From Squalus acanthias (lineage: Eukaryota): DNA of 64,000 nucleotides. The DNA lies in NCBI GenBank assembly GCA_030390025.1, contig CM059432.1, positions 56,298,001 through 56,362,000 on the forward strand, read 5' to 3'. Positions 1-64,000 of this stretch are shown in pieces (position 1 is the stretch's first letter; every line of letters begins with the position of its first letter). The notes beneath the pieces were generated by a model, which did no database searches, had not been told where the DNA came from, and saw nothing but the letters and a program-made list of their open reading frames with translations. Made by a program: the position numbers and the translations under genes.

Positions 1-3000
1 CCCCTCCCTCTTTCTCTCTCCCCCCTCCCTCTTTCTCTCTCTCCCCCTCCCTCTTTCTCTCTCTCCCCCTCCCTCTTTCTCTCTCTCTCCCCCTCCCTCT
101 TTATCTCTCTCTCCTCCCTCCCTCTTTCTCTCTCTCTCCTCCCTCTCTTTCTCTCTCTCTCTCCTCCCTCTCTTTCTCTCTCTCTCTCCTCCCTCCCTCT
201 TTCTCTCTCTCCTCCCTCCCTCTTTCTCTCTCTCCTCCCTCCCTCTTTCTCTCTCTCCTCCCTCCCTCTTTCTCTCTCCCTCCTCCCTCCTTCTCTCTCT
301 CCCTCCTCCCTCTTTCTCTCTCTCTCCCTCCTCCCTCTTTCTCTCTCTCCCTCCTCCCTCTTTCTCTCTCTCCCTCCTCCCTCTTTCTCTCTCTCCCTCC
401 TCCCTCTTTCTCTCTCTCTCCCCCTCCCTCTTTCTCTCTCTCTCCCCCACCCTCTTTCTCTCTCTCTCCCCCTCCCTCTTTCTCTCTCTCTCCCCCTCCC
501 TCTTTCTCTCTCTCTCCCCCTCCCTCTTTCTCTCTCTCCCCCTCCCTCTTTCTCTCTCTCCCCCTCCCTCTTTCTCTCTCTCTCTCCTCCCTCCCTCTTT
601 CTCTCTCTCTCCTCCCTCCCTCTTTCTCTCTCTCTCTCCTCCCTCCCTCTTTCTCTCTCTCCTCCCTCCCTCTTTCTCTCTCTCCTCCCTCCTTCTCTCT
701 CTCCCTCCTCCCTCCTTCTCTCTCTCCCTCCTCCCTCTTTCTCTCTCTCTCCCTCCTCCCTCTTTCTCTCTCTCCCTCCTCCCTCTTTCTCTCTCTCCCT
801 CCTCCCTCTTTCTCTCTCTCCCTCCTCCCTCTTTCTCTCTCTCTCCCCCTCCCTCTTTCTCTCTCTCTCCCCCTCCCTCTTTCTCTCTCTCTCCCCCCTC
901 CCTCTTTCTCTCTCTCTCCCCCTCCCTCTTCTCTCTCCCTCCCCCTCCCTCTTTCTCTCTCTCTCCCCCTCCCTCTTTCTCTCTCTCTCTCCTCCCTCCC
1001 TCTCTCTCTCCTCCCTCCCTCTTTCTCTCTCTCCTCCCTCCCTCTTTCTCTCTCTCCTCCCTCCCTCTTTCTCCCTCCTCCCTCCTTCTCTCTCTCCCTC
1101 CTCCCTCCTTCTCTCTCTCCCTCCTCCCTCTTTCTCTCTCTCCCTCCTCCCTCTTTCTCTCTCTCCCTCCTCCCTCTTTCTCTCTCTCCCTCCTCCCTCT
1201 TTCTCTCCCCCTCCCTCTTTCTCTCTCTCTCCCCCTCCCTCTTTCTCTCTCTCTCCCCCTCCCTCTTTCTCTCTCTCTCCCCTCCCTCTTTCTCTCTCTC
1301 TCCCCTCCCTCTTTCTCTCTCTCTCCCCCTCCCTCTTTCTCTCTCTCTCTCTCCCCCCCCTCTCTCTCTCCTCCCTCCCTCTTTCTCTCTCTCTCCTCCC
1401 TCCCTCTTTCTCTCTCTCTCCTCCCTCCCTCTTTCTCTCTCTCTCCTCCCTCCCTCTTTCTCTCTCTCCTCCCTCCCTCTTTCTCCCTCCTCCCTCTTTC
1501 TCCCTCCTCCCTCTTTCTCTCTCCCTCCTCCCTCTTTCTCTCTCCTCCTCCCTCTTTCTCTCTCCCCCTCCCTCTTTCTCTCTCTCCCCCTCCCTCTTTC
1601 TCTCTCTCCCCCTCCCTCTTTCACTCTCTCTCCCCCTCCCTCTTTCTCTCTCTCTCCCCCCTCCCTCTTTCTCTCTCTCTCCCCCTCCCTCTTTCTCTCT
1701 CTCTCCCCCTCCCTCTTTCTCTCTCTCTCCCCCTCCCTCTTTCTCTCTCTCTCCCCCTCCCTCTTTCTCTCTCTCTCCCCCTCCCTCTTTCTCTCTCTCT
1801 CCCCCTCCCTCTTTCTCTCTCTCTCTCCCCCTCCCTCTTTCTCTCTCTCTCTCCCCCTCCCTCTTTCTCTCTCTCTCTCCCCCTCCCTCTTTCTCTCTCT
1901 CTCTCCCCCTCCCTCTTTCTCTCTCTCTCTCCCCCTCCCTCTTTCTCTCTCTCTCTCCCCCTCCCTCTTTCTCTCTCTCTCTCTCCCCCTCCCTCTTTCT
2001 CTCTCTCTCTCCCCCTCCCTCTTTCTCTCTCTCTCTCCCCCTCCCTCTTTCTCTCTCTCTCTCCCCCTCCCTCTTTCTCTCTCTCTCTCCCCCTCCCTCT
2101 TTCTCTCTCTCTCTCTCCCCCTCCCTCTTTCTCTCTCTCTCTCCCCCTCCCTCTTTCTCTCTCTCTCCCCCTCCCTCTTTCTCTCTCTCTCCCCCCTCCC
2201 TCTTTCTCTCTCTCTCCCCCCTCCCTCTTTCTCTCTCTCTCCCCCCTCCCTCTTTCTCTCTCTCTCCCCCCTCCCTCTTTCTCTCTCTCTCCCCCTCCCT
2301 CTTTCTCTCTCTCTCCTCCCTCCCTCTTTCTCTCTCTCTCCTCCCTCCCTCTTTCTCTCTCTCTCCTCCCTCCTTCTCTCTCTCTCCCTCCTCCCTCTTT
2401 CTCTCTCTGTCTCTCTCTCCCTTCTCCCTTCCCCCCCTTCTCCCTTCCCCCCTTCTCCCTTCCCCCCCTTCTCCCTTCCCCCCCCCTTCTCCCTTCCCCC
2501 CCCTTCTCCCTCCCCCCCTTCTCCCTTCCCCCCCCTTCTCCCTCCCCCCCTTCTCCCTCCCCCCCTTCTCCCTCCCCCCCCTTCTCCCTCCCCCCCCTTC
2601 TCCCTCCCCCCCCTTCTCCCTCCCCCCCCATCTCCCTCCCCCCCTTCTCCCTCCCCCCCCTTCTCCCTCCCCCCCTTCTCCCTCCCCCCCTTCTCCTTCA
2701 CCCCCTTCTCCTTCACCCCCTTCTCCTTCACCCCCTTCCCCTTCACCCCCTTCTCCCTTCACCCCCTTCTCCCTTCACCCCCTTCTCCCTTCACCCCCTT
2801 CTCCCTTCACCCCCTTCTCCCTTCACCCCCTTCTCCCTTCACCCCCTTCTCCCTTCACCCCCTTCTCCCTTCACTCCCTTCACCCCCTTCTCCCTTCACC
2901 CCCTTCTCCCTTCACCCCCTTCTCCCTTCACCCCCTTCTCCCTTCACCCCCTTCTCCCTTCACCCCCTTCTCCCTTCACCCCCTTCTCCCTTCACCCCCT

Positions 3001-4580
3001 TCTCCCTTCACCCCCTTCTCCCTTCACCCCCTTCACTCCCTTCACCCCCTTCACCCCCCTTCTCCCTTCACCCCCTTCTCCCTTCCCCCCCCCTTCTCCC
3101 TTCCCCCCCCTTCTCCCTTCCCCCCCCCCTTCTCCCTTCCCCCCCCCCCTTCTCCCTTCCCCCCCTGCCCCCCTTCCCTCCCTCCCTCTTTCGCTCTCTC
3201 CCCCCCTTCTCCCTTCCTCTCCTTCCCCCCCCCTTCTCCCTCCCCCCCCCCTTCTCCCTTCCCCCCCCTTCTCCCTCCCCCCCCTTCTCCCCTCCCCCCC
3301 CCTTCTCCCTCCCCCCCTTCTCCCTCCCCCCCTCTCCCTCCCCCCTTCTCCCTTCTCCCTTCTCCCTTCCCCCCTTCTCCCCTTCTCCCCTTCTCCCCTT
3401 CTCCCCTTCTCCCCTTCTCCCCTTCTCCCCTTCTCCCCTTCTCCCCTTCTCCCCTTCTCCCCTTCTCCCCTTCTCCCCTTCCTCCCCTTCCTCCCCTTCC
3501 TCCCCTTCCTCCCCTTCACCCCCCCTTCTCCCTTCCCCCCCCCTTCTCCCTTCCCCCCCCTTCTCCCTTCCCCCCCCCCCTTCTCCTTCCCCCCCCCCCT
3601 TCTCCCTTCCCCCCCCTTCTCCCTTCCCCCCCTTCTCCCTTCCCCCCCTGCCCCCCTTCCCTCCCTCCCTCTTTCGCTCTCTCCCCCCCCTTCTCCCTTC
3701 CTCTCCCTTCCCCCCCCTTCTCCCTCCCCCCCCCCTTCTCCCTTCCCCCCCCTTCTCCCTTCCCCCCCCTTCTCCCCTTCTCCCCTTCTCCCCTTCTCCC
3801 CTTCTCCCCTTCTCCCCTTCTCCCCTTCCTCCCCTTCCTCCCCTTCCTCCCCTTCACCCCCCCTTCTCCCTTCCCCCCCCCTTCTCCCTTCCCCCCCCTT
3901 CTCCCTTCCCCCCCCCCTTCTCCCTTCCCCCCCCTTCTCCCTTCCCCCCCCTTCTCCCTTCCCCCCCTTCTCCCTTCCCCCCCTGCCCCCCTTCCCTCCC
4001 TCCCTCTTTCGCTCTCTCCCCCCCCTTCTCCCTTCCTCTCCCTTCCCCCCCCTTCTCCCTCCCCCCCCCCTTCTCCCTTCCCCCCCCTTCTCCCTTCCCC
4101 CCCCTTCTCCCTCCCCCCCCTTCTCCCTCCCCCCCTTCTCCCTCCCCCCCTTCTCCCTCCCCCCCTTCTCCCTCCCCCCCTTCTCCCTCCCCCCCTTCTC
4201 CCTCCCCCCCTTCTCCCTCCCCCCCTTCTCCCTCCCCCCCCTTCTCCCTCCCCCCCTTCTCCCTCCCCCCCTTCTCCCTCCCCCCCTTCTCCCTCCCCCC
4301 CTTCCCCTTCTCCCCTTCTCCCCTTCTCCCCTTCTCCCCTTCTCCCCTTCTCCCCTTCTCCCCTTCTCCCCTTCTCCCCTTCTCCCCTTCTCCCCTTCTC
4401 CCCTTCTCCCCTTCTCCCCTTCTCCCCTTCTCCCCTTCCTCCCCTTCCTCCCCTTCCTCCCCTTCCTCCCCTTCCTCCCCTTCCTCCCCTTCCTCCCCTT
4501 CCCCCCCCCTTTCCCCCCCCCCTTTCCCCCCCTTCCTCTCTTCCCCCCCCTTCTCCCTCCCCCCCCCCTCTCCCTCTCTT
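1..4580. repeat. Giant CT-rich low-complexity/minisatellite tract (polypyrimidine on +, polypurine on -), truncated by window start
   Basis: Almost exclusively C/T for 4.58 kb. Successive units CTCCCTCTTT(CT)n, CCCCCTTCTCCCT, CACCCCCTTCTCCCTT and CCCCTTCT. The G/E/R/K ORFs on - are artefacts of this. Confidence 0.97.
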
Positions 4581-4662: not shown

Positions 4663-5542
4663 ATAGCTCCAATTCCTTTTGGAGAACGGAGTCTTTGTGG
4701 GTTTGTACGCCCTATATTGAGCTAGGGATTCACAATCAGCTGCAGAAACATGATTTGTACTCAAGTGAATAGTAAAAGAATCTCCTGTAAAAAGACCAAC
4801 TACTCAAGTGAAATGCAGATCAAATAAGAATTAGAGTTTCTAAAACCAAGAAAGTGTCAGTGACTTATCTTGAAAGATGTTGATTGTACATGCCAGTACT
4901 CAAAAGTTGCACTCCTCCATAATTTGTATGAGTGTACAAACAATAAATAGATACAAGTAGTCGTTGACAGGGTCATCAAACTATTTATTTGAATGACAAT
5001 TAATTGACAGTTCCTTAACAAAATAAATAAGAGATTGTAAAGGAAATTCAGTAGTGTCACTGTAAATCAGCATTAATTGAATCGCTGATTGTTAAATTTT
5101 ATAGTTGCAATCAGTATCTGTGACAGAGATAAATTGGTCAGATTAATCTCGGATTAAACTCCTTAGTTTGCAACAGCACTAGATAGCCAGTCTATTGAAT
5201 AGATTAGAGTTTATGTGCTGGTGGTTAGCTATGTTTTCAGAGCTTAAACAACATTGTCTTATGAGTGGTTGAGTCGATCTTCCTTCCCTGAGGTGGTGGC
5301 ATTAGCTTCCAGAAGATAGAGTTCATGAGCCCCTAAGGTAATCTGTTCCACTTGGACCCTCTGTTCCGACTATACCCACCTTATGTGAGAGTGACTATAT
5401 TTGAACCAGCTGGCTTGGCTCTCACCTCCTTGATCTCAGACAACTTATACAATGAAGTGACATACTTAACTCTGCCTGTAAGGTACACATGCATTGTTCT
5501 CTATCTATATATGCTTTGTCGAGTCTGTATTTCTTTACTACT

Positions 5543-5584
5543 TCACCTGAGGAAGGGGTGATCGATAGCTCCGAAAGCTTGTGA
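5543..5584 (+). ncRNA. Minimal type I hammerhead ribozyme motif in a solo Penelope-type pLTR (second family)
   Basis: UCAC-CUGAGGA-A-[GGGGU..GCUCC stem II]-GAAA-GC-UU-GUGA: core CUGANGA/GAAA, stem I UCAC/GUGA, palindromic loopless stem III AGCU. Followed by AATAAA. Confidence 0.7.
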
Positions 5585-6049
5585 TTTCAAATAAAACTGT
5601 TGGACTATAACCTGGTGTTGTACGACCTCTCAATTTTAGCTAGCTGGTGCAGCTGTACAATCTGTCTTAAAAAACCTCTTGCTCTCTGTCTTGAATATAC
5701 TTGGTATTTATAACAGTACCCTTCTACATCTGTTGGGTCAAGATTACATCTTATCGTTGGTAACAAATGTTCTATTTAAGTAATCCTTCTAGGTTTTAAT
5801 TAGTTTTGATTTTCCTAGCCATTCCCCAGCATTCTGTTTAATTACTGACTATGCTTTATGTGGCCACCTTTATGCTGGAACTCCACTTTGAGAACACAAT
5901 TCAGCCAATTTACAAAACAAAATCAAAATTCAGTTTGTCTTTCTTTTGGCCTTATCTACTTGTGCTGCTGCCTTTCATGATTGGTGCAAGTGTACACCAA
6001 GGTTCCTCATGCTCCTCTACTCCATTTTAAAATATACCATTTAACAATC

Positions 6050-15432: not shown

Positions 15433-16277
15433 AACAGTTCTCAATGCATATAATCTCCAGCTCTTGTTTTCAGTTCCTTTTCACCCAGAGTCACCCTGTT
15501 TCCTAGCTTTTTGTGGTTTAGCTTTTCTCTTTCCCTTTGTCATTCACCTCTCCAGATGACATCTTTCTGGCTCATTTAATACATCAATACTATTTGGAAG
15601 CCCAAGATCAAGGCCACCTTCAGGAAACCAGACACTCTGGAGCCTGATGCCTAATTTAGCTATACACCAGTCTTCGCTTTTATATTGAGTAGGATGTATT
15701 AACTTCTATCAATGCACACAGCTAGATCTGCCTCTGTTTACCTGTATACAATGAATGCTAAGGAATTTGTGTCTCCCATCTTCTGGTCGACATTGCTCGA
15801 AGAAAAAAAAATTCTTACCCAAGATTTAATTAGTCTTGGAAACAATCGTTCAAATTCTGAATGCAGTCTATCCTCATAATTCAAAGTCATGTTTTGAGCT
15901 AAAATATTTGAATTATACAGTATTTCAAATTAAATATAAAAATTGAAACTGCCAAGTAGGAATTTAGGGGTAAAAATTCAGTTGGTTGTGCCTCCCGTTA
16001 GCGCCTTAAGAGGGCGCTAATGGGGCGCAAAGCCGCTAACGCCCGGGCGCAGCGATGTTTGCGCCGCTTGGGAACTTAACTAGAGATTGTGCGGCGGCGC
16101 TAAAACTTACCGCTGCGACCACCTGCGCGCGCAGATTGTGACGTCATTCCATGGTGCAACGCCCTTGTGGCGCCCCGGACCGGAAATTGAGTGGCGCCCC
16201 CTGCCTTACCGCCTGGCGCATCCAACGACCGGAAGACTGGAACGCTATCAATCGCTGTGGGGCTGGGGGGGGGGCGC

Positions 16278-16285
16278 TATTTAAA
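16278..16285 (+). promoter_or_regulatory. Candidate TATA box of the Harbinger transposase gene
   Basis: TATTTAAA downstream of a G-rich tract, about 190 nt upstream of ATG 16476. A similar CTTAAAG lies upstream of the Myb-like gene on - near 19850. Confidence 0.4.
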
Positions 16286-16555
16286 GGGGGCCTCTTCCTG
16301 TCTTTTTCTGTGGTCGACATTTTTGCACCACTCGTTCTGAGAGAGAGACATTCGGAGAGAGAGAAAGAGAGACTTCTACATTGACTCAACGCTTTGTGAG
16401 GTAGTTTTGCCTATTGATCCTAACTTCGCTGGTACTTTAGTTGCTGTCCTTCATTACTTTGCTTGCAAAGAGAATATGGGGGCTGCACTGATTGGGGGCG
16501 TCGTCCTGCTCCAGCTGAATTGGAGGATACAGAGACGCAGAGAGAGAGAGTGGCA

Positions 16556-17638
16556 ATGATGGCCAGACGGAGGAGGGCCATCAGGCGTATGTACAGGAGA
16601 GCTTACCCTCCCAGGGTATATCGTGAACAGCTCTCCTACATCCATATGTCTGAGGAGCTGTGTTTGCGAAGGCTGCGATTCAGCAAGGAGGTGGTCACTG
16701 AGCTCTGCCACCTGCTGCAGCCAGATCTGCAGCCTCAACTGAGGTCCAGGACGTCTCTGTCGGTGGCAGTGAAGGTCACAGTGGCTCTCAACTTTTACGC
16801 TACTGGCTCATTTCAAGCTGCTGCTGGGGACCTCGCCAATATCTCCCAGTTCGCGGTGCATTGCTGCATCCGGCAGGTCACAAATGCCCTCTTTAAAAGG
16901 AGACGAGAGTTCATCTCTTTCCCCATGACCCCAGACAAGCAGCGTGACCGCGCTCTGGGCTTTGCGAGGGTAGCGGGCTTCCCCATGGTGCAGGGCGCCA
17001 TTGACTGCACGCATGTGGCTTTGCGTGCTCCGCATGAGAATGCCGAGGAATTCCGGAACAGAAAGGGGTTCCATTCCTTGAATGTTCAGTTGGTCTGTGA
17101 CCACAGACAGCTGATACTCGCTGTCAATGCCCAGTATCCTGGCAGCTGCCACGATGCTTTTATCCTGCGCCAGACTACTGTGGCAGAACTTTTCGAGGCA
17201 CCGCATCAGCCAGTTGGTTGGCTTCTCGGGGACAAGGGGTATGCATTGAGCACCTGGCTGATGACACCGCTCCGTACGCCCAACACCCCTGCTGAGCTGC
17301 GGGACAATGAGAGCCATCAAGCTACCAGGAACATAATTGAGCGCACAATCGGCGTGCTGAAGCAACGGTTCCGCTGTCTCGACCATTCTGGAGGAGCCCT
17401 GCAGTACTCGCCTGAGCGAGTATCGAACTTCGTAGTCGTGTGCTGCATGTTGCATAACATGGCAATCCTCAGGACCCAGCCAATGCCACCAGGCCTTGGA
17501 GCACCACCAGAGGAGGAAGAGGAAGAGGAGGAAGAGGACGAGGAGGATGATCATCAGCAGCACCAAGGCGGGAGGGCGGCCCACAATGGTCAAACTGCAA
17601 GGGCCGTCCGTCAACGGCTAATAGCAAGCCGCTTCTAG
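16556..17638 (+). CDS. Harbinger DDE transposase (HARBI1-like, DDE_Tnp_4); 360 aa from ATG 16556, ancestral start probably ATG 16476
   Basis: Motifs RLRFSKE, ALNFYATGSFQ, ANISQFAVH (HTH), GAIDCTH, NRKGFHSLNVQLVCD, PGSCHDAFIL, LLGDKGY, RNIIERTIGVLKQRFRCL, CCMLHN; acidic C-terminal tail; no internal stop. Confidence 0.93.
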   Translation: MMARRRRAIRRMYRRAYPPRVYREQLSYIHMSEELCLRRLRFSKEVVTELCHLLQPDLQPQLRSRTSLSVAVKVTVALNFYATGSFQAAAGDLANISQFAVHCCIRQVTNALFKRRREFISFPMTPDKQRDRALGFARVAGFPMVQGAIDCTHVALRAPHENAEEFRNRKGFHSLNVQLVCDHRQLILAVNAQYPGSCHDAFILRQTTVAELFEAPHQPVGWLLGDKGYALSTWLMTPLRTPNTPAELRDNESHQATRNIIERTIGVLKQRFRCLDHSGGALQYSPERVSNFVVVCCMLHNMAILRTQPMPPGLGAPPEEEEEEEEEDEEDDHQQHQGGRAAHNGQTARAVRQRLIASRF

Positions 17639-17933
17639 GGCCCCTGCCATTGCTAACAACATTAATGAACCCAGCACGCAACCCCTAAGCCGGCCAAGGC
17701 ACCAATAATTCCAACCACCAACCATGTATATTTTGAATACAGAAACTTATTTATTTTACAAACTCTGTGTGTGTCAATTCCTCATGACAAACTCATAGAA
17801 ATAAACACAAAAAAACAGTCAATAACATAACTGGTTCTCACAACCTGGAGATAATGTCCAAAACACTAAACAAAAGTTGGACCATGAACCTCGACCTTTA
17901 ATAAAAAAAATGACCAGCATTTTGTCACACCTC

Positions 17934-18913
17934 CTACTTTTTGCCCTTCGAGGGTGATCTCCTTCCCTTGCGCACTTCCCCCCTTCTAACCCTACTGCTC
18001 CTCCGTAATGGGACCTCAGTGGCTGCAGCAAGGCTGGTGGAAGGCTGCTGCTCGTCAGACCCTGACACTGCAGATGCCCCTGAAGGACGGCCTCGACCAC
18101 TTCTGGGCCTGGAGGGCCCGGCTGCAGACTGCACCAACTCTGCATGGGCGGCAGCAGTCTGTCCTACAGGCGGTGGCAAGTGCAGTGGAGAAGTGACAGT
18201 GTTGGCAGCAGGAATGCTGTCATCGTGAGAGAGGACAGCAACTCCCTGCTCGCCCGACACACTGGCACTCCCACGGGGCAGCACTTCAGCATCCGGAGCA
18301 ATCTGCCGGAGAACAGATTGCTGGCCTGCTGCGGCGCGGTGAGAGCCCCGGGGACATGTGAACGAACCATCGAGGTTGGCAGCAGTCTGTGCTCGCGTGG
18401 CCTCAATCTGAGTCTGCATGAGAGCAGTCAGAGATGGGATCACGGCAGCCAGTGACTGAATTGCAGCACTAAGCGTTAGTGTGGCATCTGCCTGTGCTAC
18501 AGCGAAGTGCTCCACACTCCTTGCCAGTGACTCAATGCATTCGGGCACCCTTCCCACTGCACCCATGAGCTCAGTGTGCATGCCCACCGCCTGGGTGTTC
18601 ATTTCTGCGATCAGCCGCTCCTCCTCTGCGTCCATTGCAGTAGGAGTCTCTGGCATACTCTCCCTCTGGGGAGAAGGCCCCCGTTCTTCCCTACCACCCC
18701 CATGGCGTTGCTGCAGCCCGCTGGGTCCTGGAGCTTCACCCTCATCAGACCCTTCCCCCCTGCTCCCCTCCAGGGAAGGCGTGTTCCCAGTGTGGGCATG
18801 GGCTTCCTCGGGAGAGGGTGGCACTGATGCTCCGGCTTCCTCTTCCTCCTCGGCTGCAGCATCACTCCCAGTGGCAGCTTCAGGGCCCGTCTCCTCAGCT
18901 GGTGAATCACCAT
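17934..18913 (-). CDS. Harbinger Myb/SANT-like DNA-binding protein, exon 3 (980 nt, contains stop)
   Basis: Acceptor ttgtacctccctgctttcag|AT at 18914/18913. The phase-1 join reads in frame into ORF 17934..18824 (coiled-coil-like middle, basic NLS-like end RRGEVRKGRRSPSKGKK). Confidence 0.8.
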
Positions 18914-19072
18914 CTGAAAGCAGGGAGGTACAAGAGTGGCTTTAGCGTGAGGACAGGGTGGCAGTAAGGGAGGAATAAGTGCAGCGAGTTAGCAAGTTGG
19001 ATTGAAACTGTCAAAGGCTGGTGTTGTGAGGGACAAGTGGAAGGACAGAGGACAAAAAGGTGATGACCTTAC

Positions 19073-19235
19073 CATTGCTGTCCAGAACGGGGTCGGCGTC
19101 TCCAGTGGCGACGGGACCGATCACCTGGCTTGCCACAATCCTGTGGACGCGCTCCTCAAGATCGCTGTGGGGTTGCAGCTGAGGCCGCCCTCCACCTGTC
19201 CGTTGCTGCTGTCTCCGATTATGCGCCAGCTTGTC
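19073..19235 (-). CDS. Harbinger Myb/SANT-like protein, exon 2 (163 nt)
   Basis: tcctttttcttacag|GAC AAG ... AAT G|gtaagg; DKLAHNRRQQQRTGGGRP contains the TGGG motif typical after the Myb_DNA-bind_5 domain. Confidence 0.85.
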
Positions 19236-19266
19236 CTGTAAGAAAAAGGACAGCATCTGAGTAAAT

Positions 19267-19375
19267 ATACAGCCATGGTCTTGCCTGATGTGCCTCCCAT
19301 AGGTGAATAGCCCTTACTGTATATAGCCATGGTCTTGCCTGATGTGCCTCCCATAGGTGAATAGCCCTTACTGTA
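19267..19375. repeat. 54-bp tandem duplication in intron 1 of the Myb-like gene
   Basis: agccatggtcttgcctgatgtgcctcccataggtgaatagcccttactgtat starts at both 19271 and 19325. Confidence 0.9.
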
Positions 19376-19517
19376 TGCAAAGTGTGGAATGTGTGTGTGT
19401 TTGATGAAAGGGCCATAGGTGTTGGATGAGTGTTGTGCATTGGGGTTTTAAGACCCTCTGGCCATAGAGTGAGGTTGAGATGGAGGGATGGAGAGGTATT
19501 GAGAAAAAGCCACTCAC

Positions 19518-19754
19518 CCTGATGACCCGAGTGAGGTCGTTGAACTTTTTGCGGCATTGAGTATGGGTCCTGGGCACCATGCTCCTGGAGGAGACGCTCT
19601 GAGCCACCTCCCTCCACACTCTTCTGAACTCGCGTGGCAAAGGCCTCCTGCCACTCTCAGGGAAGAGCATACATCTTCTGCGCTCCACCGCGCCAACCAG
19701 AGCATCCAAGGCCCGCTCGGTGAAGCGATGAGCGCGTTCTTTCACCCTCTCCAT
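19518..19754 (-). CDS. Harbinger Myb/SANT-like protein, exon 1 (237 nt; trihelix/Myb DNA-binding domain)
   Basis: MERVKERAHRFTERALDALVGAVERRRCMLF..RRVWREVAQSVSSRSMVPRTHTQCRKKFNDL; donor AGG|gtgagt. Confidence 0.88.
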
Positions 19755-20304
19755 CCTTGGCAGCAAAATGGATTCACAGGTCTCTCCAGGCCGAGATTCA
19801 AGGCTGCAATGAGCAGGGTGTGGCTGGGGAGCAAGTTGGCCCCCCCCGCTTTAAGAAGTGGCCGGCGCCAGTGTGTCTGTGTTCCCTCGCTAACTGGCAG
19901 CAGCTGCGCTGCGCTCGCGCGCTGAGTTAGCGCCTCACTGCTCGGCCTTTGCGCCTTAAGACAGGTGTGCAGCGCCTGATTTAGCGCTCCACTCACCTCC
20001 CGGGGCGGTAAAAGTGAAGTTTCCAGTCAGTGCCGATAATTAGCGCCAGGCGCTAATATTTGCGTCCAGACGATATTTGCGCCCCAAATGGGGCGCGACC
20101 TAATTTTTACCCCTCAGTGTTTAAAATTTGAGTTGTCAGAATATTCAAATTGTGACTGAATTAAGAGAATAGACTGAATCAAAATGACCCAGCATTGCTA
20201 GCAAATTATTTGCCATACAATGTATTGCAATAGAATTTTTGTGTTAATAAAATGAGGATGCAAGTTTATGCTTGATCTCACAATTGCACTGAACAATTTG
20301 ACTT

Positions 20305-23300
20305 TTTAAAAATTTCTTTTATGGGATCTGGGCGTCACTGGCAAGGCCATCATTTATTGCCCATTCCCTAATTGCCCTCGAGAAGGTGGTGGTGAGCCGC
20401 CTTCTTGAACCGCTGCAGTCTGTGTGGTGAAGGTACTCCCACAGTGCTGTTCGGTAGGGAGTTCCAGGATTTTGACCCAGCGACGATGAAGGATCGGCGA
20501 TATACTTCGAAGTCAGGATGGTGTGTGACTTGGAGGGGAACTTGGAGGTGGTGGTGTTCCCATGCGCCTGCTGCCTTTGTCCTTCTAGGTGGAAGAGGTC
20601 GCGGGTTTGGGAGGTGCTGCCGAAGAAGCCTTGGCGAGTTGCTGGAGTGCATCTTGTAGATGGTACACACTGCAGCCACGGTACGCCGGTGGTGGAGGGA
20701 GTGCATGTTTAAGTTGGTGGATGGGGTGCCAATCAAGCGGGCTGCTTTGTCCTGGATGGTGTCGAGCTTCTTGAGTGTTGTTGGAGCTGCACTCATCCAG
20801 GCAACTGGAGAGTATTCCATCACACTTCTTACTTGTGCCTTGTAGATGGTAGAAAGGCTTTGGGGAGTCAGGAGGTGAAACGCTTGCTGCAGAATACCTA
20901 GCCTCTGCCCTGCTCTTGTTGCCACAGTATTTATGTGGCTGGTCCAGTTAAGTTTCTGGTCAATGGTGACCCCCAGGATGTTGATGGTGGGGGATTTGGC
21001 GATGGTAATGCCATTGAATGTCAAGGGGCGGTGGTTAGACTCTCGCTTGTTGGAGATAGTCATTGCCTGGCACTTCTGCGGCGTGAATTTTATCTGCCAC
21101 TTATCAGCCCAAGCCTGAACATCGTCCAGGTCTTGTTGCATGCGGGCATGGACTGCTTCATTATCTGAGGAGTTGTGAATGGCACTGAACACTGTGCAGT
21201 CATCAGCAAACATCCCCATTTCTGACCTTATGTTGGAGGGAAGGTCATTGATGAAGCAACTGAAGACGGTTGGGCCTAGGACACTGCCCTGAGGAACTCC
21301 TGCAGCGATGTCCTGGGGCTGTGAAGATTGACCTTCAATCACCATAACCATCTTCCTTTGTGCTAGGTATGACTCCAGCCAGTGGAGAGTTTTCTCCCCG
21401 ATTCTCATTGACTTCAGTTTTACTAGGGCTCCTTCATGCTACACTTGGTCAAATGCTGCCATGATGTCAAGGGCAGTCACTCTCACCTCACCTCTGGAAT
21501 TCAGCTCCTTTGTCCATGTTTGGACCAAGGCTGTAATGAGGTCGGGAGCCGAGTGGTCTTGGCGGAACCCAAACTGGGTATCATAGGTGAGTAAGTGCCG
21601 CTTGATAGCACTGTTGATGACACCTTCCATCACTTTGCTGATGATTGAGAGTAGACTGATGGAGCGGTAATTGGCCGGAATGGATTTGTCCTGTTTTTTG
21701 TGGACAGGACATACCTGGGCAGTCTTCCACATTGTCGGATAGATGCCAGTGTTGTAGCTGTACTGGAACAGCTTGGCTCGAGGCGTGGCTAGTTCTGGAG
21801 CACAAGTCTTCAGCACGATAGCCGGGATGTTGTCAGGACCCATAGCCTTTGCTGTATCCAGTGCGCTGAGCCGTTTCTTGATATCACGTGGAGTGAATCG
21901 AATTGGCTGAAGACTGGCTTCTGTGATGGTGGGGACCTCAGGAGGAGGCCGATATGGATCATCCCACTCTGCACTTCTGGCTGAAGATGGTTGCAAATGC
22001 TTCAGCCTTGTCTTTTGCACTCACGTGCTGGGCTCCACCATCATTGAGGATGGGGATATTCTTGGAGCCTCCTCCTCCCGTTAGTTGTTTAATGGTCCAC
22101 CACCATTCACGACTAGATGTGGCAGGACTGCAGAGCTTTGATCTGATCCGTTGATTGTGGGATCGCTTAGCCCTGTCTATAGCATGCTGCTTCTGCTTTT
22201 TAGCACACATGTAGTCCTGTGTTGCAGCTTCCCCAGGTTAGCACCTCATTTTTAGGTATGCCTGGTGCTGCTCCTGGCATGCTCTTCCACACTCCTTATT
22301 GAACCAGGGTTGGTCTCCTGGCTTGATGGTAATGGTAGAGTGAGGGATATGCCGGGCCATGAGGTTACAGATTGTGGTGGAATACAATTCTACTGCTGCT
22401 GATGGCCCACAGCGCCTTATGGATGCCCAGTTTTGAGCTGCAAGATCTGTTCTGAATCTATCCCATTTAACACGGTGGTAGTGCCACACAACACGATGGA
22501 GGGTGTCCTCAGTGTGAATACGGGACTTCGTCTCCACAAGGACTGTGCGGTGGTCACTGCTACCAATACTGTCATGGACAGATGCATCTGCGAGAGGTAG
22601 ATTGGTGAGGACAAGGTCAAGTAAGTTTTTCCCCTCGCGTTGGCTTCTCTCACCACCTGTCACAGGCCCAGACTGCCAGTTATGTCCTTCTGGGCTCGGT
22701 CAGTAGTGGTGCTACCAAGGCACTCTTGGTGATGGCCATTGAAGTCCCCCACCCAGAGTGCATTCTGGCCCTTGCTACTCTCAGTGCTTCTTCCAAGTGG
22801 TGTTCAACATGGCGGAGTGCTGATTCATCAGCTGAGGGAGGGCGTTAGGTGGTAATCAGCAGGAGCTTTCCTTGTCCATGCTTGACCTGAAGCCATGAGA
22901 CTTCATGGGGTCCGGAGTCAATGTTGAGGACTCCCAGGGCCACTCCTTCCCAACTGTATACCACTGTGCCGCCACCCCTGGTGGGTCTGTCCTGTCGGTT
23001 CTACAGGACATACCCAGGGATGGTGATGGAGGAGTTTGGGACACTGGCTGAAAGTTATGATTCTGTGAGTATGACTATGTCAGGCTGTTGCTTGACTAGT
23101 CTGTGGGACAGCTCTCCCAATTTTGGCACAAGTCCCCAGATGTTGGTGAGGAGTACTTTGCAGGATTGACTGGGCTGGGTGTGCCGTTGCCGTGTCGGTA
23201 GCCGGTGCCGAGGTCGATGCTGGGTGGTCCGTCCGGTTTCTTTCTTATGATTTTGTTTCGTAGTGGTTTGTTACAACTGAGTGGCTTGCTGGGCCATTTC

Positions 23301-30975: not shown

Positions 30976-32549
30976 ATGGGGGCTGGGGTTATGATCTGAA
31001 ATTGTTGAACTCTATGTTGAGTCCAGAGGGCTGTAGAGTGCCTAAACGAAAGATGAGGTGCTGTTCCTCGAGCTTACGCTGAGCTTCCGTGGAACAATGC
31101 AAGAGGCCGAGGTCAGAGTTGGAGTGGAGCGGAGAATTAAAGTGACAGGCCACCGGGAGCTCGGGGTCCCCCTTAGGGACTGAACGGAGGTGTTCCGCAA
31201 AGCGGTCACCCAATCTGCGTTTGGTCTCGCCAATGTAGAGGAGACCACATCGTGAGCAGCGAATACAGTATACTAAATTGCAGGAAGTACAAGTAAATCG
31301 CTGTTTCACCTGGAAGGGGTGTTTGGGGCCCTGGACAGTGGGAAGGGCGGAGGTATAAGGGCATATGTTGCATTTCCTGCGCTTGCACGGGAAGGTGCCA
31401 GGGGAAGGGGTGCTGGGGGTGGTGGAGGAGTGGACTTGGGTGTCACGGAGGGAGCGGTCCCTGCGGAATGCTGAAAGGGGAGGTGAGGGGGAGATGCGTT
31501 TGGTGGTGGGATCACGCTGGAGGTGGCAGAAATGGCGGAGGATGATCCGTTGAATGTGGAGGCTGGTGGGGTGAAAGGTGAGGACAAGGGGAACTCTATC
31601 GTGGTTCCGGGAGGGAGGGGCAGGGGTGAGGGCAGAAGTGCGGGAGATAGAACGGACATGGTCGAGGGCCGTGTTAACCACAGTAGAGGGGAATCCTCGG
31701 TTGAGGAAAAAGGAAGACATGTCGGAAGCACTGGTATGGAAGGTGGCATCGTCAGAGCAGATGCGGCGGAGATGGAGAAACTGGGAGAATGGAATAGAGT
31801 CCTTACAGGAGGCGGGGTGGGAGGAAGTGTAGTCCAGGTAGCTGTGGGAGTCAGTGGGCTTGTAGTGAATGTTTGTCAATAACCTATCCCCAGAGATGGA
31901 GACGGAGAAGTCGAGGAAGGGAAGGGAAGAGTCGGAGATGGACCATGTGAAGGTGAGGGAAGGGTGGAAATTGGAAGCAAAGTGAATGAAATTTTCTAGT
32001 TCAGGGCGAGAGCAGGAGACGGCACCGATAGTCATCCGCAGTATTTTGCTATCATATAGTTACTTATAATAGTTGGAAGGAAACTGGCATTTTTTATCTG
32101 GTACCAGTTTACTTCCATTCATCATGGAACAGTATAAGAAATTTTGGGAGGAGACTAGCCCATTATGCACCTCGTGCCACAGACCATGTACAATCTTCTA
32201 TATCATAAACTCTACCCAATCTGCTTACTTCACTGAGATAAGGTTCTGGTAAGTTTCTTCTCCCTCTCAAAAAATCTATCTTTGTTTCTAATGTTTAATT
32301 TTGCAGGAAATATTTTTTTTCTGTTCATTAGTGATGGAAGTTAGAAGTCCTAGAAGATTCTATTTTTAGCTGGTAAAAGTTATTCTATGGGGAAAATTAC
32401 CAAAACATTTATCAGGTGAAATAGGATGGGATGGGAAGAGTGTTTGTCAACATGTTTTGTTCGAATCATAGCTACTTATTTTAATTTTCAAAGATGTTGA
32501 AAGTTCAGAATAATGGAAACTTTGGGTGGGAGAAGGGGGAACTATCCAC

Positions 32550-34532: not shown

Positions 34533-36945
34533 TAAGAACATAAGAACATAAGAAATAGGAGCAGGAGTAGGCCAATCGGCCCTTCGAGCCTGCTCCGCCA
34601 TTCAATAAGATCATGGCTGATCTGATCCTCACCTCAAATCTAAAGAACACAAGAAGTAGGAGCAGGACCCGGCCACTCAGCCCCTGGGCCCGCTATGCCA
34701 CCCACAGGGCCTCTACCGATCCGAATTCAGCCTCATGTCCAATTTCCTGCCCGCTCCCCGTAACCCCTAATTCCCTTTACTTCTAGGAAACTGTCTATTT
34801 CTGTTTTAAATTTATTTAATGATGTAGCTTCCACAGCTTCCTGGGGCAGCAAATTCCACAGACCTACTACCCTCTGAGTGAAGAAGTTTCTCCTCATCTC
34901 AGTTTTGAAAGAGCAGCCCCTTATTCTAAGATTATGTCCCCTAGTTCTAGTTTCACCCATCCTTGGGAACATCCTTACCGCATCCACCCGATCAAGCCCC
35001 TTCACAATCTTATATGTTTCAATAAGATCGCCTCTCATTCTTCTGAACTCCAATGAGTAGAGTCCCAATCTACTCAACCTCTCCTCGTATGTCCACCCCC
35101 TCATCCCGGGGATTAACCGAGTGAACCTTCTTTGTACTGCCTCGAGAGCAAGTATGTCTTTTCTTAAGTATGGACACCAAAACTGTATGCAGTATTCCAG
35201 ATGCGGTCTCACCTTATATAACTGTAGCAATACCTCCCTGTTTTTATAATCTATCCCCCTAGCAATAAAAGCCAACATTCCGTTGGCCTTCTTGATCACC
35301 TGTTGCACCTGCATACTAACTTTTTGATTTTCTTGCACCAGGACCCCCAGATCCCTTTGTACTGCAGTACTTTCCAGTTTCTCGCCATTAAGATAATAAC
35401 TTGCTCTCTGATTTTTCCTGCCAAAGTGCATAACCTCACATTTTCCAATATTGTATTGCATCTGCCAAATCTCTGCCCACTCACCCAGCTTGTCTATATC
35501 CCCTTGTAGGTTTTTTATGTCCTCCTCACTTTCTACTTTCCCTCCCATCTTTGTATCATCTGCAAACTTTGATATGTTACACTCGGTCCCCTCCTCCAAA
35601 TCGTTAATATAGATTGTAAAGAGTTGGGGACCCAGCAGCGACCCCTGCGGAACACCACTGGCTACTGGTTGCCAGTCCGAGAATGAACCATTTATCCCAA
35701 CTCTCTGCTTCCTGTTAGATAACCAATCCTCCACCCATGCCAGAATATTCCCCCCAATCCAGTGATTTTTTATCTTGAGCAATAATCTTTTATGTGGCAC
35801 CTTGTCGAATGCCTTCTGGAAGTCTAAATACACTACGTCCATTGGTTCCCCTTTATCCACCCTGTACGTTATGTCCTCAAAGAACTCAAGCAAATTTGTC
35901 AGACATGATTTCCCCTTCATAAAGCCATGCTGACTTTGTCCTATCAAATTATGTTTATCTAAATGTTCCGTTACTGTCTCCTTAATAATAGACTCCAAAA
36001 TTTTACCCACCACAGATGTTAGACTAACTGGTCTATAATTTCCAGCTTTCTGCCTACTACCCTTTTTAAATAAGGGTGTTACATTAGCAGTTTTCCAATC
36101 TGCCGGGACCTTTGCTGAGTCCAGGGAATTTTGGAAAATTATTACCAAAGCATCCACAATCCCTATTGCCACTTCCCTCAAGACCCTAGGATGTCAGCCA
36201 TCAGGTCCAGGGGATTTATCCGCCTTGAGTCCCATTATTTTACTGAGTACCAATTCCTTAGTGATTTTAATCGTATTTAGCTCCTCCCCCCCCTAGAGCC
36301 CCCTGTTTGTCCAGTGTTGGGATATTCTTAGTGTCCTCTACCGTAAAGACTGAAACAAAATATTTGTTCAGCATTTTTGCCATCTCCATGTTTCCCACCA
36401 TTAATTTTCCGGTCTCATCCTCTAAGGGACCTATGTTTGCCTTAGCCACCCTTTTTCTTTTTATATAACTATAGAAACTCTTGCTATCTGTTTTTATATT
36501 TTTTGCTAATTTATTTTCATAATCTATCTTCCCTTTCTTAATCAATCCTTTAGTTACTTTTTGCTGTCTTTTGAAGACTTCCCAATCTTCTATCCTCCCA
36601 CTAAGTTTGGCTACCTTATATGTCCTTGTTTTTAGTTGGATACTATCCTTAATTTCTTTACTTAGCCACGGATGGCTGTCATTTCTTTTACACCCTTTTT
36701 TCCTCAGTGGAATATATATTGTTTGAAAGTTGTAAAATAACTCCTTAAATGAACACCACTGCTCATGTACCGTCTTACCCTTTAATCTATTTTCCCAGTC
36801 CACTTTAATCAATTCCGCTCTCATACCATCATAGTCTCCTTTATTCAAGCTCAGTACGCTTGTCTGAGAACCAACCTTCTCACCCTCTAATTGGATATGG
36901 AATTCAACCATGTTATGGTCACTCATTCCAAGGGGATCCTTAACT
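34533..36945 (-). mobile_element. CR1 LINE, relatively young, 5'-truncated ORF2
   Basis: ORFs 36267..36926 and 34733..36181 (482 aa RT region: [30 protein letters not shown]); (TTCTTATG)n tail. Confidence 0.95.
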
Positions 36946-50728: not shown

Positions 50729-52847
50729 AATAACAACAGAAAACGCTGGAAAAACTCAGCAGGCCAGGCAGCATCCGTGGCGAGAGAAACAGAGTTAACG
50801 TTTCAGGTCGAAAACCTTTCGTCAGAACTGGAAAAAAGCAGGAAATGAAATAGATATAAAGCAAGTATAAAGCTGGGAAAAGGGGGAGGGGATGAAAGAA
50901 CAAAAGGAGAGATTAAGGGGCATTGAGAGACATTAAGAGATAATCAAGGCAAACGGAGGTGTTAATGTGACAGGTTGAGGCTAAAGGAAGTGTGAAATGC
51001 ACTGGCAGAATGAAGGACAGCTGCCAGCTTCTGGGAGGGAAAAAAAAGGGGGGGCCAAACAAAAGGGTGGGTGAAAAAATAAACTTTAAATGTGATAGGG
51101 GCCGAGGTTATGATCTAAAATTGTTGAACTCGATGTTGAGTCCAGAAGGCCTAAACGAAAGATGAGGTGCTGTTCCTCGAGCTTACGCTGAGCTTCCGTG
51201 GAACAGTATAATAGGCCAAGGACGGTGAGGTCCGACTGGGAGTGGAGCGGAGAATTAAAGTGACAGGCCACCGGGAGCTCGGGGTCCCCCTTACGGACTG
51301 AACGGAGGTGTTCCGCAAAGCGGTCACCCAATCTGTGTTTGGTCTCGCCAATGTAGAGGAGACCACATCGTGAGCAGCGAATACAGTATACTGAATTGCA
51401 GGAAGTACAAGTAAATCGCTGTTTCACCTGGAAGGGGTGTTTGGGGGCCCTGGACAGTGGGAAGAGGGGAGGTATAAGGGCATGTGTTGCATCTCCTGCG
51501 CTTGCACGGGAAGGTGCCGGGCGAAGGGGAAGGGGTGCTGGGGGTGGTAGAGGAGTGGACCAGGGTGTCGCGGAGGGAGCGGGCCCTGCGGAATGCTGAA
51601 AGGGGAGGTGAGGGGAAGATGCGTTTGGTGGTGGGATCACGCTGGAGGTGGCGGAAATGGCGGAGGATGATCCGTTGAATGTGGAGGCTGGTGGGGTGAA
51701 AGGTGAGGACAAGGGGAACTCTATTGTGCTTCCGGGAGGGAGGGGCAGGGGTGAGGGCAGAAGTGCGGGAGATAGAACGGACACGGTCGAGAGCTGTGTC
51801 AACCACAGTAGAGGGGAATCCTCGGTTGAGGAAAAAGGAAGACATGTCGGAAGCACTGGTATGGAAGGTGGCATCGTCAGAGCAGATGCGGCGGAGATGG
51901 AGAAACTGGGAGAATGGAATAGAGTCCTTACAGGAGGCGGGGTGGGAGGAAGTGTAGTCCAGGTAGCTGTGGGAGTCAGTGGGCTTGTAGTGAATGTTCG
52001 TCAATAACCTATCCCCAGAGATGGAGATGGAGAAGTCGAGGAAGGGGAGGGAAGAGTCGGAGATGGACCATGTGAAGGTGAGGGAAGGGTGGAAATTGGA
52101 AGCATAGTGAATGAAATGTTCTAGTTCAGGTTGAGAGCAGGAGACTGCACCGATACAGTCATCAATGTACCGGAAAAAGAGGGAGGGGACCTGGGTAGGA
52201 CTGGAACAAAAAGTGTTCCACATATCCCACGAGAAGGCAGGCATAGCTAGGACCCATGCGGGTACCCATAGCAACACCTTTGATTTGGAGGAAATGGGTG
52301 GAGTCAAAGGAGAAGTTGTTCAATGTGAGAACAAGTTCAGCCAGGCGGAGGAGGGTGGTGGTGGATGGGGACTGGTTGGGCCTCTGTTCAAGGAAGAAGC
52401 AGAGCGCCCTCAGGCCATTCTGGTGGGGAATGGAGGTGCAGAGGGATTGTATGTCCATAGTGAAAAGGAGGCGGTTGGGGCCGGGAAACTGGAAACTGTT
52501 AAAGTGGCGGATGGCGTCGGAAGAGTCGCGGATGTAGGTGGGAAGAGACTGGACAAGGGGAGAAAAAATAGAGTCGAGGTAGGAAGAGATAAGTTCTGTG
52601 GGGCAAGAACAGGCTGAAACGATGGGTCTACCGGGGCAGTCCTGATTGTGGATCTTGGGAAGGAGGTAGAAGTGCGGGGTTGGGGAACTATGAGGTTGGC
52701 GGCCGTGGGGGGAAGGTCTCCAGAGGAGATGAGGTCAGTGACGGTCTTGGAAATGGTGGCTTGATGTTCGGTAGTGGGGTCATGGTCCAGGTGGAATTAG
52801 GAGGAGGTGTTGGAGAGTTGGCGTTCAGCTTCCGCTAGGTAGAGGTC
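50729..52847 (-). mobile_element. Penelope-like retroelement (RT + GIY-YIG + pLTR), 5'-truncated, 11-bp TSD
   Basis: MDIQSLCTSIPH, QIKGVAMGTRMGPSYA, RYIDD, GIY-YIG; frameshifted. TSD GTAATTTGTGA at 50718-50728 and 52848-52858. Confidence 0.93.
50793..50830 (-). ncRNA. Minimal type I hammerhead ribozyme motif in Penelope pLTR
   Basis: CAGUU-CUGACGA-A-AGGUUUUCGACCU-GAAA-CGUU-AACU; differs from the 30.6 kb copy by one stem II C>U that still pairs as U-G. Confidence 0.78.
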
Positions 52848-63415: not shown

Positions 63416-63916
63416 GGGGAAAAATTCAGTATCGCCCCATTTGGGGCGCAATTATCGGCCGGGCGCAAAGATTATTGCTTTGCGCTAATTATTCCCTCCG
63501 ACTTCAAACTTGGCTTTTATCGCCCCTGGAGGTGATTGGAGCGCTAAATCAGGCGCTTCACACCTGTCTTAAGGCGCAAAGGCCGAGGAGCGAGGCACTA
63601 CCTCAGAGCGCTGGCGAAGCTCGTGATGTCAGTCAGCAATGGAACAGAGACACAATGGCCCCGGCCAGTTCTTAAAGGGGAGGGTTGATCTTGCTCTCCA
63701 TCCACATCCTGCTCATTGCAGCCTTGAATCTTGGCCTGGAGAGACCTGAACATCAAATCTGCTGGAAAGAACAATGGAGAGAACCAGGGAAAGAGCTCAG
63801 AGTGCAGCCCCCACAGTCTCTTCTAAATAGATGCAAGGAAGGGCAAATCAAAATGAACCTGCAAAGTGCTGCTCAGTACCCAAAACCCCTTCACACAGTG
63901 TTGAATCTCTCCAGAA

Positions 63917-63959
<43 letters not shown>

Positions 63960-64000
63960 AATGCGTGGTGCAAAAATGTCACCAACAAAAAAAGGCAGGA
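63416..64000 (-). mobile_element. Non-autonomous internal-deletion derivative of the Harbinger element (inverted, runs off the window)
   Basis: Starts GGGGAAAAAATT. 63416-63800 matches the reverse complement of 20113-19730; 63801-64000 matches the reverse complement of ~16489-16295. Confidence 0.88.

What the first reader, a model, noticed from the sequence alone, without database searches (positions are those of the whole stretch)
15967..20113. Structurally complete two-gene Harbinger transposon with a hidden spliced 459-aa Myb/SANT partner
Seen: perfect 12-bp TIRs and an uninterrupted DDE ORF with the GAID, HD, GD and IER acidic motifs. Three - strand exons (19754-19518, 19235-19073, 18913-17934; 237+163+980 = 1380 nt) join through GT-AG introns in matching phases into one stop-free 459-aa protein, which the ORF track shows only as fragments. 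Known: PIF/Harbinger transposition requires both a transposase and a Myb-like DNA-binding protein. Inference: a young, possibly recently active family (CpG-rich, both frames open, unlike the surrounding decayed LINEs) and a candidate for reconstruction as a tool. Caveat: the usual RYN motif reads RDN here.
Basis: partly seen in the sequence, partly recalled or inferred. Interest (0 to 1): 0.8.

Follow-up and report, generated by a model that had tools for sequence, protein, structure and literature searches.

The report
Abundant two-gene shark Harbinger transposon family
This is one copy of a two-gene cut-and-paste transposon of a known kind (Harbinger), with an estimated 5,700 two-gene copies in a likely shark genome, about four in ten of those sampled still unbroken, and a predicted conserved RNA double hairpin inside its partner gene.

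Summary
Anatomy confirmed: 12-bp TIRs, a 360-aa DDE transposase and a three-exon 459-aa Myb/SANT partner. Intron 2 is skipped at its exact GT-AG ends in 3 of 4 laid runs. Intron 1 rests on homology only. This is not a rare survivor. Probe counts imply about 5,700 two-gene copies, plus 893-bp MITEs and older sister lineages. Of 53 unselected copies, 22 keep both frames, all splice sites and the catalytic residues. Transposase variants shared among copies are under purifying selection (omega 0.19); private ones are neutral (0.95). The RDN oddity is a mutation of this copy; the family reads RYN or RYQ. The target is a palindrome like that of Harbinger3_DR, but with a relaxed centre (TWA in 15 of 72 sites). 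The best relatives are all sharks and rays, with no sign of horizontal transfer. 'Young' needs care: at a measured shark mutation rate, the median copy is millions of generations old, and current activity is untested. Verdict: new member of a known kind, moderately interesting.

The parts
15964..15966 (.). left target-site triplet (TTA)
   Evidence: 3-bp TSDs perfect in 24 of 28, 52 of 69 and 30 of 38 other copies
15967..15978 (+). left 12-bp TIR
   Evidence: 13,427 exact matches of the left-end 22-mer in the genome
15979..16340 (.). left subterminal region, CpG o/e about 1.0, with a repeated GCGCTAA-type word (candidate Myb sites, inferred, not tested against chance); retained in MITEs
16556..17638 (+). 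DDE transposase, 360 aa; this copy carries a private Y-to-D change in the RYN motif
   Evidence: omega 0.19 for shared variants, 0.27 against the older lineage
17639..17933 (.). spacer between the convergent genes, with polyadenylation-signal-like hexamers on both strands (inferred 3' UTRs)
17934..18913 (-). Myb partner exon 3 (acidic, helical and basic C-terminal stretches); frame held open, no synonymous excess
18192..18263 (-). predicted hairpin 2 inside exon 3
18282..18336 (-). predicted hairpin 1 inside exon 3
18914..19072 (-). intron 2, 159 nt, GT-AG
   Evidence: joint 18913-19073 in 3 of 4 laid runs, two studies
19073..19235 (-). Myb partner exon 2
19236..19517 (-). intron 1, 282 nt, GT-AG, with a 54-bp tandem duplication (19266-19376) whose copy number varies among copies
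   Evidence: junction supported by homology, not listed in runs
19518..19754 (-). Myb partner exon 1, Myb/SANT-like domain
   Evidence: omega 0.25 against the older lineage; 6,141 exact probe matches
19755..20101 (.). right subterminal region, retained in MITEs
20102..20113 (-). right 12-bp TIR
20114..20116 (.). right target-site triplet (TCA; one mismatch to the left one)

Best explanation
This is one of thousands of dispersed copies of a two-gene PIF/Harbinger DNA transposon that likely has been inherited vertically in a shark lineage and likely moved by the Harbinger two-protein cut-and-paste route. Shown: ends, genes, 3-bp TSDs at different flanks, a palindromic target preference, purifying selection on shared variants of the transposase and Myb domain, non-autonomous derivatives, and a graded series of older lineages. 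Inferred from Harbinger3_DR and mPing: the Myb protein binds repeated subterminal words and carries the transposase into the nucleus; the transposase cuts at the ends and inserts at a roughly 15-19 bp palindrome, duplicating its central 3 bp; the same proteins, or those of a sister lineage, move the MITEs in trans. So many copies likely stay unbroken because the host mutates slowly, not because they inserted in the last few generations. The double hairpin in exon 3 is likely a cis-element of the partner mRNA (about 40%; role untested).
For: Anatomy. 28 full-length copies with distinct flanks except one duplicated pair, 24 with perfect TSDs. Probe counts of 13,427, 12,084 and 6,141, with reversed controls at 0. 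47 of 51 Myb probes have a transposase probe in register. 22 of 53 unselected copies are intact. Transposase singletons 70 N / 26 S against shared 20 N / 36 S, Fisher p=8e-6. Target logo from 72 sites agrees with the published Harbinger3_DR palindrome at all 12 outer positions. The query nests among 34 shark and ray proteins, support 0.99. Older lineages at 66-95% identity, several with the same exon order. Intron 2 joint. Gap-free alignment across junction 1.
Against: The intron 1 joint is not listed in 4 of 4 laid runs, and contigs also cover both introns unspliced. The laid runs are only guessed to be RNA, and no DNA run was laid as control. Exon 3 has omega 0.94, no database homolog and no significant match to the ray Myb-like protein (E=0.055). 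TIRs (12 bp) are shorter than the 14-25 or 25-50 bp quoted for Harbingers. 21 of 97 copies have mismatched TSDs, more than neutral decay should give. The hairpins show no double-sided compensatory change. The mutation rate comes from another species. Copy samples come from the first 41 Mb of one contig.
Confidence: 0.88

Rival explanations
1. The family is transposing now, and the open frames reflect very recent insertions.
For: A subfamily with RYQ, many of its copies carrying an in-frame 87-bp duplication, has independent insertions only 0.35-0.47% apart. MITE pairs differ by 0.11-0.34%. Spliced intron 2 is seen in runs. Roughly 2,300 copies are estimated to be intact.
Against: No identical independent pair among 43 and 39 aligned copies. 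The closest pairs (0.05% and 0.26%) are neighbours with the same TSDs, likely segmental duplicates. Private substitutions are neutral, so they accumulated after insertion. The RDN marker of this copy shows no daughter copy. The samples are about 1% of the family and could miss a small active branch.
Confidence: 0.35
2. The functional partner is mainly exons 1-2; the exon 3 tail is a tolerated disordered extension whose sequence is constrained as RNA or DNA, not as protein.
For: In the C-terminal half of exon 3 the three codon positions differ equally from 70% lineages (0.27/0.29/0.32), against 0.26/0.18/0.48 in the transposase and 0.36/0.29/0.62 in exon 1. Omega is 0.6-1.6 across its parts.
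Against: The predicted frame is the only one of six with no stop in all four exon 3 comparisons, though only about 2 stops were expected per comparison. The indels shared among copies in exon 3 are multiples of 3. Intron 2 splices into it in frame.
Confidence: 0.3
3. The hairpin signal is a by-product: recombination among copies homogenised this segment, and a chance inverted repeat was inherited.
For: Copies are mosaics (incompatibility rises with distance, permutation p=0.001). Covariation is not above shuffles, and 0 of 40 pairs change on both sides. The segment was picked after a scan, and the copies are related.
Against: Third positions are slowed about twofold at two depths of divergence. 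Stem columns vary less than others (5 of 68 against 43 of 123, partly circular), and all 5 stem variants shared by 3 or more copies keep pairing. Median z is -5.1 in 13 older copies, against -1.3 to +0.7 in 7 control windows.
Confidence: 0.45
4. The family entered the genome recently by horizontal transfer, as Harbinger-Snek did in sea kraits.
For: Low divergence and a massive expansion. Runs under 7 coded organism labels hold about half of its words (labels not interpretable).
Against: The best 75 protein hits that carry a species name are all sharks or rays, at up to 67% identity; named non-chondrichthyan hits reach 44-51%. The same genome holds relatives from 95% down to 66%.
Confidence: 0.06
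5. A domesticated HARBI1/NAIF1-like gene pair.
For: Database relatives are named 'putative nuclease HARBI1'.
Against: Intact TIRs and TSDs, thousands of dispersed copies, neutral private mutations.
Confidence: 0.01

Closest known systems
Harbinger3_DR (zebrafish; Sinzelle 2008, not held, known here through passages of PMC2836001, PMC3016246, PMC9710019)
   Same: Transposase plus Myb-like protein; 3-bp TSD; palindromic target whose 12 outer positions fit the logo found here.
   Different: Its centre is CWG. Here the centre is relaxed: W in the middle in 70 of 72 sites, CWG in 1, TWA in 15. It had to be rebuilt from a consensus, whereas about 40% of copies here look intact. Sequence identity to it was not tested.
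Harbinger-Snek (sea kraits, PMC8437027, passages)
   Same: Large vertebrate Harbinger expansion with full-length and non-autonomous forms.
   Different: It was horizontally acquired and has 269 intact copies in its richer host. Here descent looks vertical and the estimate is about 2,300 intact copies (criteria differ).
Shark and ray proteins named 'putative nuclease HARBI1' (P0001-P0120)
   Same: Same transposase clade, up to 67% identity.
   Different: Annotated as genes, not as elements. None is close enough to be this family.
Ping/Pong with mPing (rice; PMC2836001, PMC4561436, passages)
   Same: Two-protein autonomous elements that move MITEs; 3-bp TSD; extended target preference.
   Different: TTA/TAA centre, 9-bp preference, MITEs under 500 bp. 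Here the MITEs are about 893 and 740 bp.

Membership tests
PIF/Harbinger superfamily | DDE transposase of the DDE_Tnp_4 type with catalytic acidic residues | tested here: met
   PF13359 E=2.4e-39; D, D, D, E present in this copy and in 38 of 38 sampled copies
PIF/Harbinger superfamily | Second gene for a Myb/SANT-like protein inside the element | tested here: met
   PF13873 E=8.7e-9; omega 0.25 for exon 1
PIF/Harbinger superfamily | Terminal inverted repeats | tested here: met
   12 bp perfect; shorter than the ranges quoted
PIF/Harbinger superfamily | 3-bp target site duplication | tested here: met
   106 of 135 copies perfect; this copy has one mismatch
PIF/Harbinger superfamily | Extended palindromic target preference | tested here: met
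   72 unique sites, pooled over full-length copies and MITEs; both halves visible before symmetrising
PIF/Harbinger superfamily | Both proteins are needed for transposition and interact | not testable with these tools
   needs a cell assay
TWA-type Harbingers / Tourist | TSD is TTA or TAA (typical, not universal: Harbinger3_DR uses CWG) | tested here: not met
   15 of 72 sites
Harbinger3_DR family | CWG centre in the target palindrome | tested here: not met
   1 of 72 sites
Domesticated HARBI1/NAIF1 | Single copy, without TIRs or TSD | tested here: not met
Any named Repbase/Dfam family | Sequence match to a deposited consensus | not testable with these tools
   no repeat library on hand
Any Rfam family (for the hairpins) | Covariance-model match | tested here: not met
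   only a 24-bit hit (cut-off 73) elsewhere in the element

The most novel reading that the evidence does not exclude
A shark genome carries about 2,000 structurally intact autonomous Harbinger copies, still mobile at a low rate, and the family limits or times itself through a conserved double hairpin overprinted on the partner's coding exon: a cis-regulatory RNA element that my searches did not find described in any Harbinger. Its relaxed-centre palindromic target would also separate outer-arm recognition from TSD identity.
Probability: 0.2. Interest if true: 0.68.

Novelty: new member of a known kind. Interest (0 to 1): 0.45.

Why it matters
A 2022 survey found no Harbinger in elephant shark and asked for other cartilaginous fish to be tested (PMC9179366). 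A 2025 shark assembly lists Tourist/Harbinger as its commonest DNA transposons (PMC12498223), so presence is known in bulk. This adds an anatomy, a target logo and a copy census. It shows that the outer arms of the Harbinger3_DR target are kept while the centre is free. It also gives a case where open frames and 1-4% divergence can mislead on age in a slow-mutating host. Natural intact copies could be assayed without reconstruction. The hairpin segment is a concrete, testable lead on how a two-component transposon is regulated.

Tried and rejected
Sequencing runs: no RNA holder listed on record; 9 of 15 runs are guessed RNA. The intron 1 junction was not listed in the 4 runs laid. This copy has private changes 1 and 5 nt from that junction, which may hide it. 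A second laying on a closer copy gave no result, so the RNA test of intron 1 and a DNA control stay open. Complex prediction of the transposase with the helical part of exon 3: no verdict, score 0.00, partner fold uncertain. PDB sequence search: 0 hits. Exon 3 homolog search: none. Rfam: nothing credible. An overlapping frame as the cause of slow third positions was rejected: the other five frames have stops. Donor-triplet carry-over as the cause of mismatched TSDs is not supported as the sole cause: several odd triplets have C or G in the middle, which is rare among matched TSDs. Flank swapping is not the sole cause either: 6 of 21 mismatched sites are bridged by empty-site paralogues, against 29 of 76 matched. 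The second RDN hit is not a daughter copy (91% identity). Earlier findings of this scan: none. Paper searches found no description of this family or of a hairpin in a Harbinger Myb-like gene; the library lacks most subscription journals and Repbase Reports. Sinzelle 2008 is not held. Supplements were not read; those of PMC12498223 may list shark Harbinger families. The tree left out 61 of 120 proteins outside 340-450 aa.
Full report
Observation. The element runs 15967-20113 between perfect 12-bp TIRs, with flanking triplets TTA and TCA. The + strand holds a 360-aa transposase (ATG 16556, stop 17638; DDE_Tnp_4 E=2.4e-39). The - strand holds three exons that join through GT-AG introns into 459 codons, with a Myb/SANT-like domain in exon 1 (E=8.7e-9).

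Splicing. Four runs from two studies, guessed to be RNA and kept as contigs, were laid on the window. The joint 18913-19073, skipping 159 nt with CT..AC ends, stands in 3 of 4. The intron 1 joint is not listed. One run shows a weak joint from exon 2 to about 19996, a possible upstream exon. Contigs also cover both introns unspliced. No DNA run was laid, but none of 43 aligned genomic copies has an indel in intron 2. For intron 1, the spliced exons 1+2 align without a gap over 112 aa (42%) to a sawshark gene model, whereas the unspliced read-through stops matching at residue 79. Splice sites are present in 28 of 28 top copies and mostly in lineages at 77-91% identity.

Family size. The first search scored only 40 of 7,866 candidates. 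Of its 30 loci, 28 were full length, 24 with perfect TSDs and 21 with both frames open. Exact probes gave 13,427 left ends, 12,084 transposase sites (older lineages included) and 6,141 Myb exon 1 sites in 3.71 Gb; reversed controls gave 0. On contig C1, 47 of 51 Myb probes have a transposase probe in register, giving about 5,700 two-gene copies (4,980-6,010), roughly 0.6% of the genome. The first 73 left ends on C1 were 15 full-length, 3 long without a right end in the stretch, 52 MITEs of about 893 bp with ends 85-88% identical, and 3 deletion derivatives of about 740 bp. Of 40 further Myb-probe sites, 38 were complete. Pooled, 24 of 53 unselected copies have both frames open, and 22 of 53 (42%, CI 28-56%) also keep the four splice sites and catalytic residues. 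That extrapolates to about 2,300 copies (roughly 1,500-3,200), from one contig only.

Selection and age. In the transposase, singleton variants are neutral (70 N / 26 S, omega 0.95) and shared ones are purged (omega 0.19-0.21; Fisher p=8e-6). This is the expected signature of copies made by functional masters that then decay. RDN is such a private change. Median private divergence is 0.32% and 0.24% in two samples. At 7e-10 per generation (epaulette shark, PMC10587355, passages), 0.24% is 3.4 million generations (1.7-17 million over its CI). The host is inferred to be a shark or ray from protein hits and the tree; the rate is from another species. The youngest independent insertions sampled differ by 0.35-0.47%, and MITE pairs by 0.11-0.34%. 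Twenty transposase-only probe sites proved to be relatives at 66-95% identity, several with the same exon order, which fits long vertical persistence. Copies are mosaics.

Target. From 72 unique sites the preference is T-W-A-R-A-S-W-C, then a triplet, then the mirror image. The strongest positions are C at -2, A at -5 and A at -7 (0.74, 0.84, 0.68). The Harbinger3_DR consensus as printed in PMC3016246 (passage) fits all 12 outer positions. The centre differs: middle W in 70 of 72, TWA 15, CWG 1. Recurrent hits fall in LINE-tail-like repeats (11 of 70) and at one site near the start of a LINE ORF2 (4 of 70) (the CR1/LINE labels are recalled, not from a call).

Exon 3. Against the 85% lineage, the transposase and exon 1 have omega 0.27 and 0.25, and exon 3 has 0.94. 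In its C-terminal half all codon positions diverge alike, and third positions about half as fast as elsewhere, at two depths, while the frame stays stop-free. A scan found strong folding at 18190-18380 (z -4.55, 0 of 200 shuffles). It holds in 21 of 21 homologous segments (z -2.3 to -8.2). In older copies the median z is -5.1, against -1.3 to +0.7 in 7 control windows. The consensus is two hairpins with near-invariant stems, but 0 of 40 pairs show a double-sided change and covariation does not beat shuffles. All 5 stem variants shared by 3 or more copies keep pairing; 2 variants seen in two copies each break it. There is no Rfam match. The signal was chosen after the scan, the copies are related, and the structure does not cover the whole slowed region. 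I put a functional RNA element at about 40%.

Mechanism. By analogy with Harbinger3_DR and mPing (passages of PMC2836001, PMC9710019, PMC4561436), the Myb protein would bind subterminal repeats and import the transposase, which excises the element and inserts it at the palindrome. The basic C-terminus of the partner and the repeated subterminal word fit this, but are untested.

Comparison and verdict. Every testable defining feature of PIF/Harbinger is met. It is not Harbinger3_DR, not a TWA-restricted type and not a domesticated gene. Identity with a deposited repeat family could not be tested. Harbingers are reported in bulk in a shark (PMC12498223, passage), absent from elephant shark (PMC9179366, passages and section 3.1), and massively expanded in sea kraits with 269 intact copies (PMC8437027, passages). 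PMC3014272 was read in passages for TIR and TSD norms only. This is a new member of a known kind. It stands out by the number of intact copies, the relaxed target centre and the candidate hairpin element. Interest 0.45.

Noticed in passing
L039, L040, L070, L087, L091, L107 and others: 21 of 97 copies have mismatched TSD triplets; 6 of these have continuous flanks by empty-site paralogues, mostly with one triplet matching the empty site. Neither neutral decay, flank swapping nor donor carry-over alone explains it.
   Followed up: partly
L032-L110 (52 loci): 893-bp MITE family with ends 85-88% identical to this element; mean pairwise difference 2.4%, closest 0.11%. Its own autonomous partner was not identified.
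   Followed up: partly
L035, L047, L107: About 740-bp deletion derivative joining 16424 to 19834; the same joint appears in run X2.
   Followed up: partly
L053, L143, L156, L157, L165, L167: Subfamily with RYQ and an in-frame 87-bp tandem duplication in exon 3; the least diverged group sampled.
   Followed up: partly
window 19234-19996: Weak joint with CT..AC ends in one run: a possible non-coding upstream exon spliced straight to exon 2, skipping the Myb exon.
   Followed up: no
window 63416-64000: A MITE-like relative of this family on the - strand, 72-81% identical, cut by the window end.
   Followed up: no
window 1-4580: 4.6-kb pure pyrimidine (CT-rich) array with periods 16, 32 and 46-48.
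   Followed up: no
window 20371-21438, 30992-32059, 34736-36193, 51327-52319, 54586-56672: LINE-like pieces with open frames of 281-486 codons; the first has an RVT_1 hit.
   Followed up: no
window 15861-15883 and 20157-20179: 23-nt inverted repeat (87%) in the host flanks on either side of the insertion.
   Followed up: no
L006/L011, L041/L043, L080/L081, L132/L133, L151/L152: Neighbouring copy pairs with the same target site, likely segmental duplications; flanks were compared over 100 bp only for L006/L011.
   Followed up: partly
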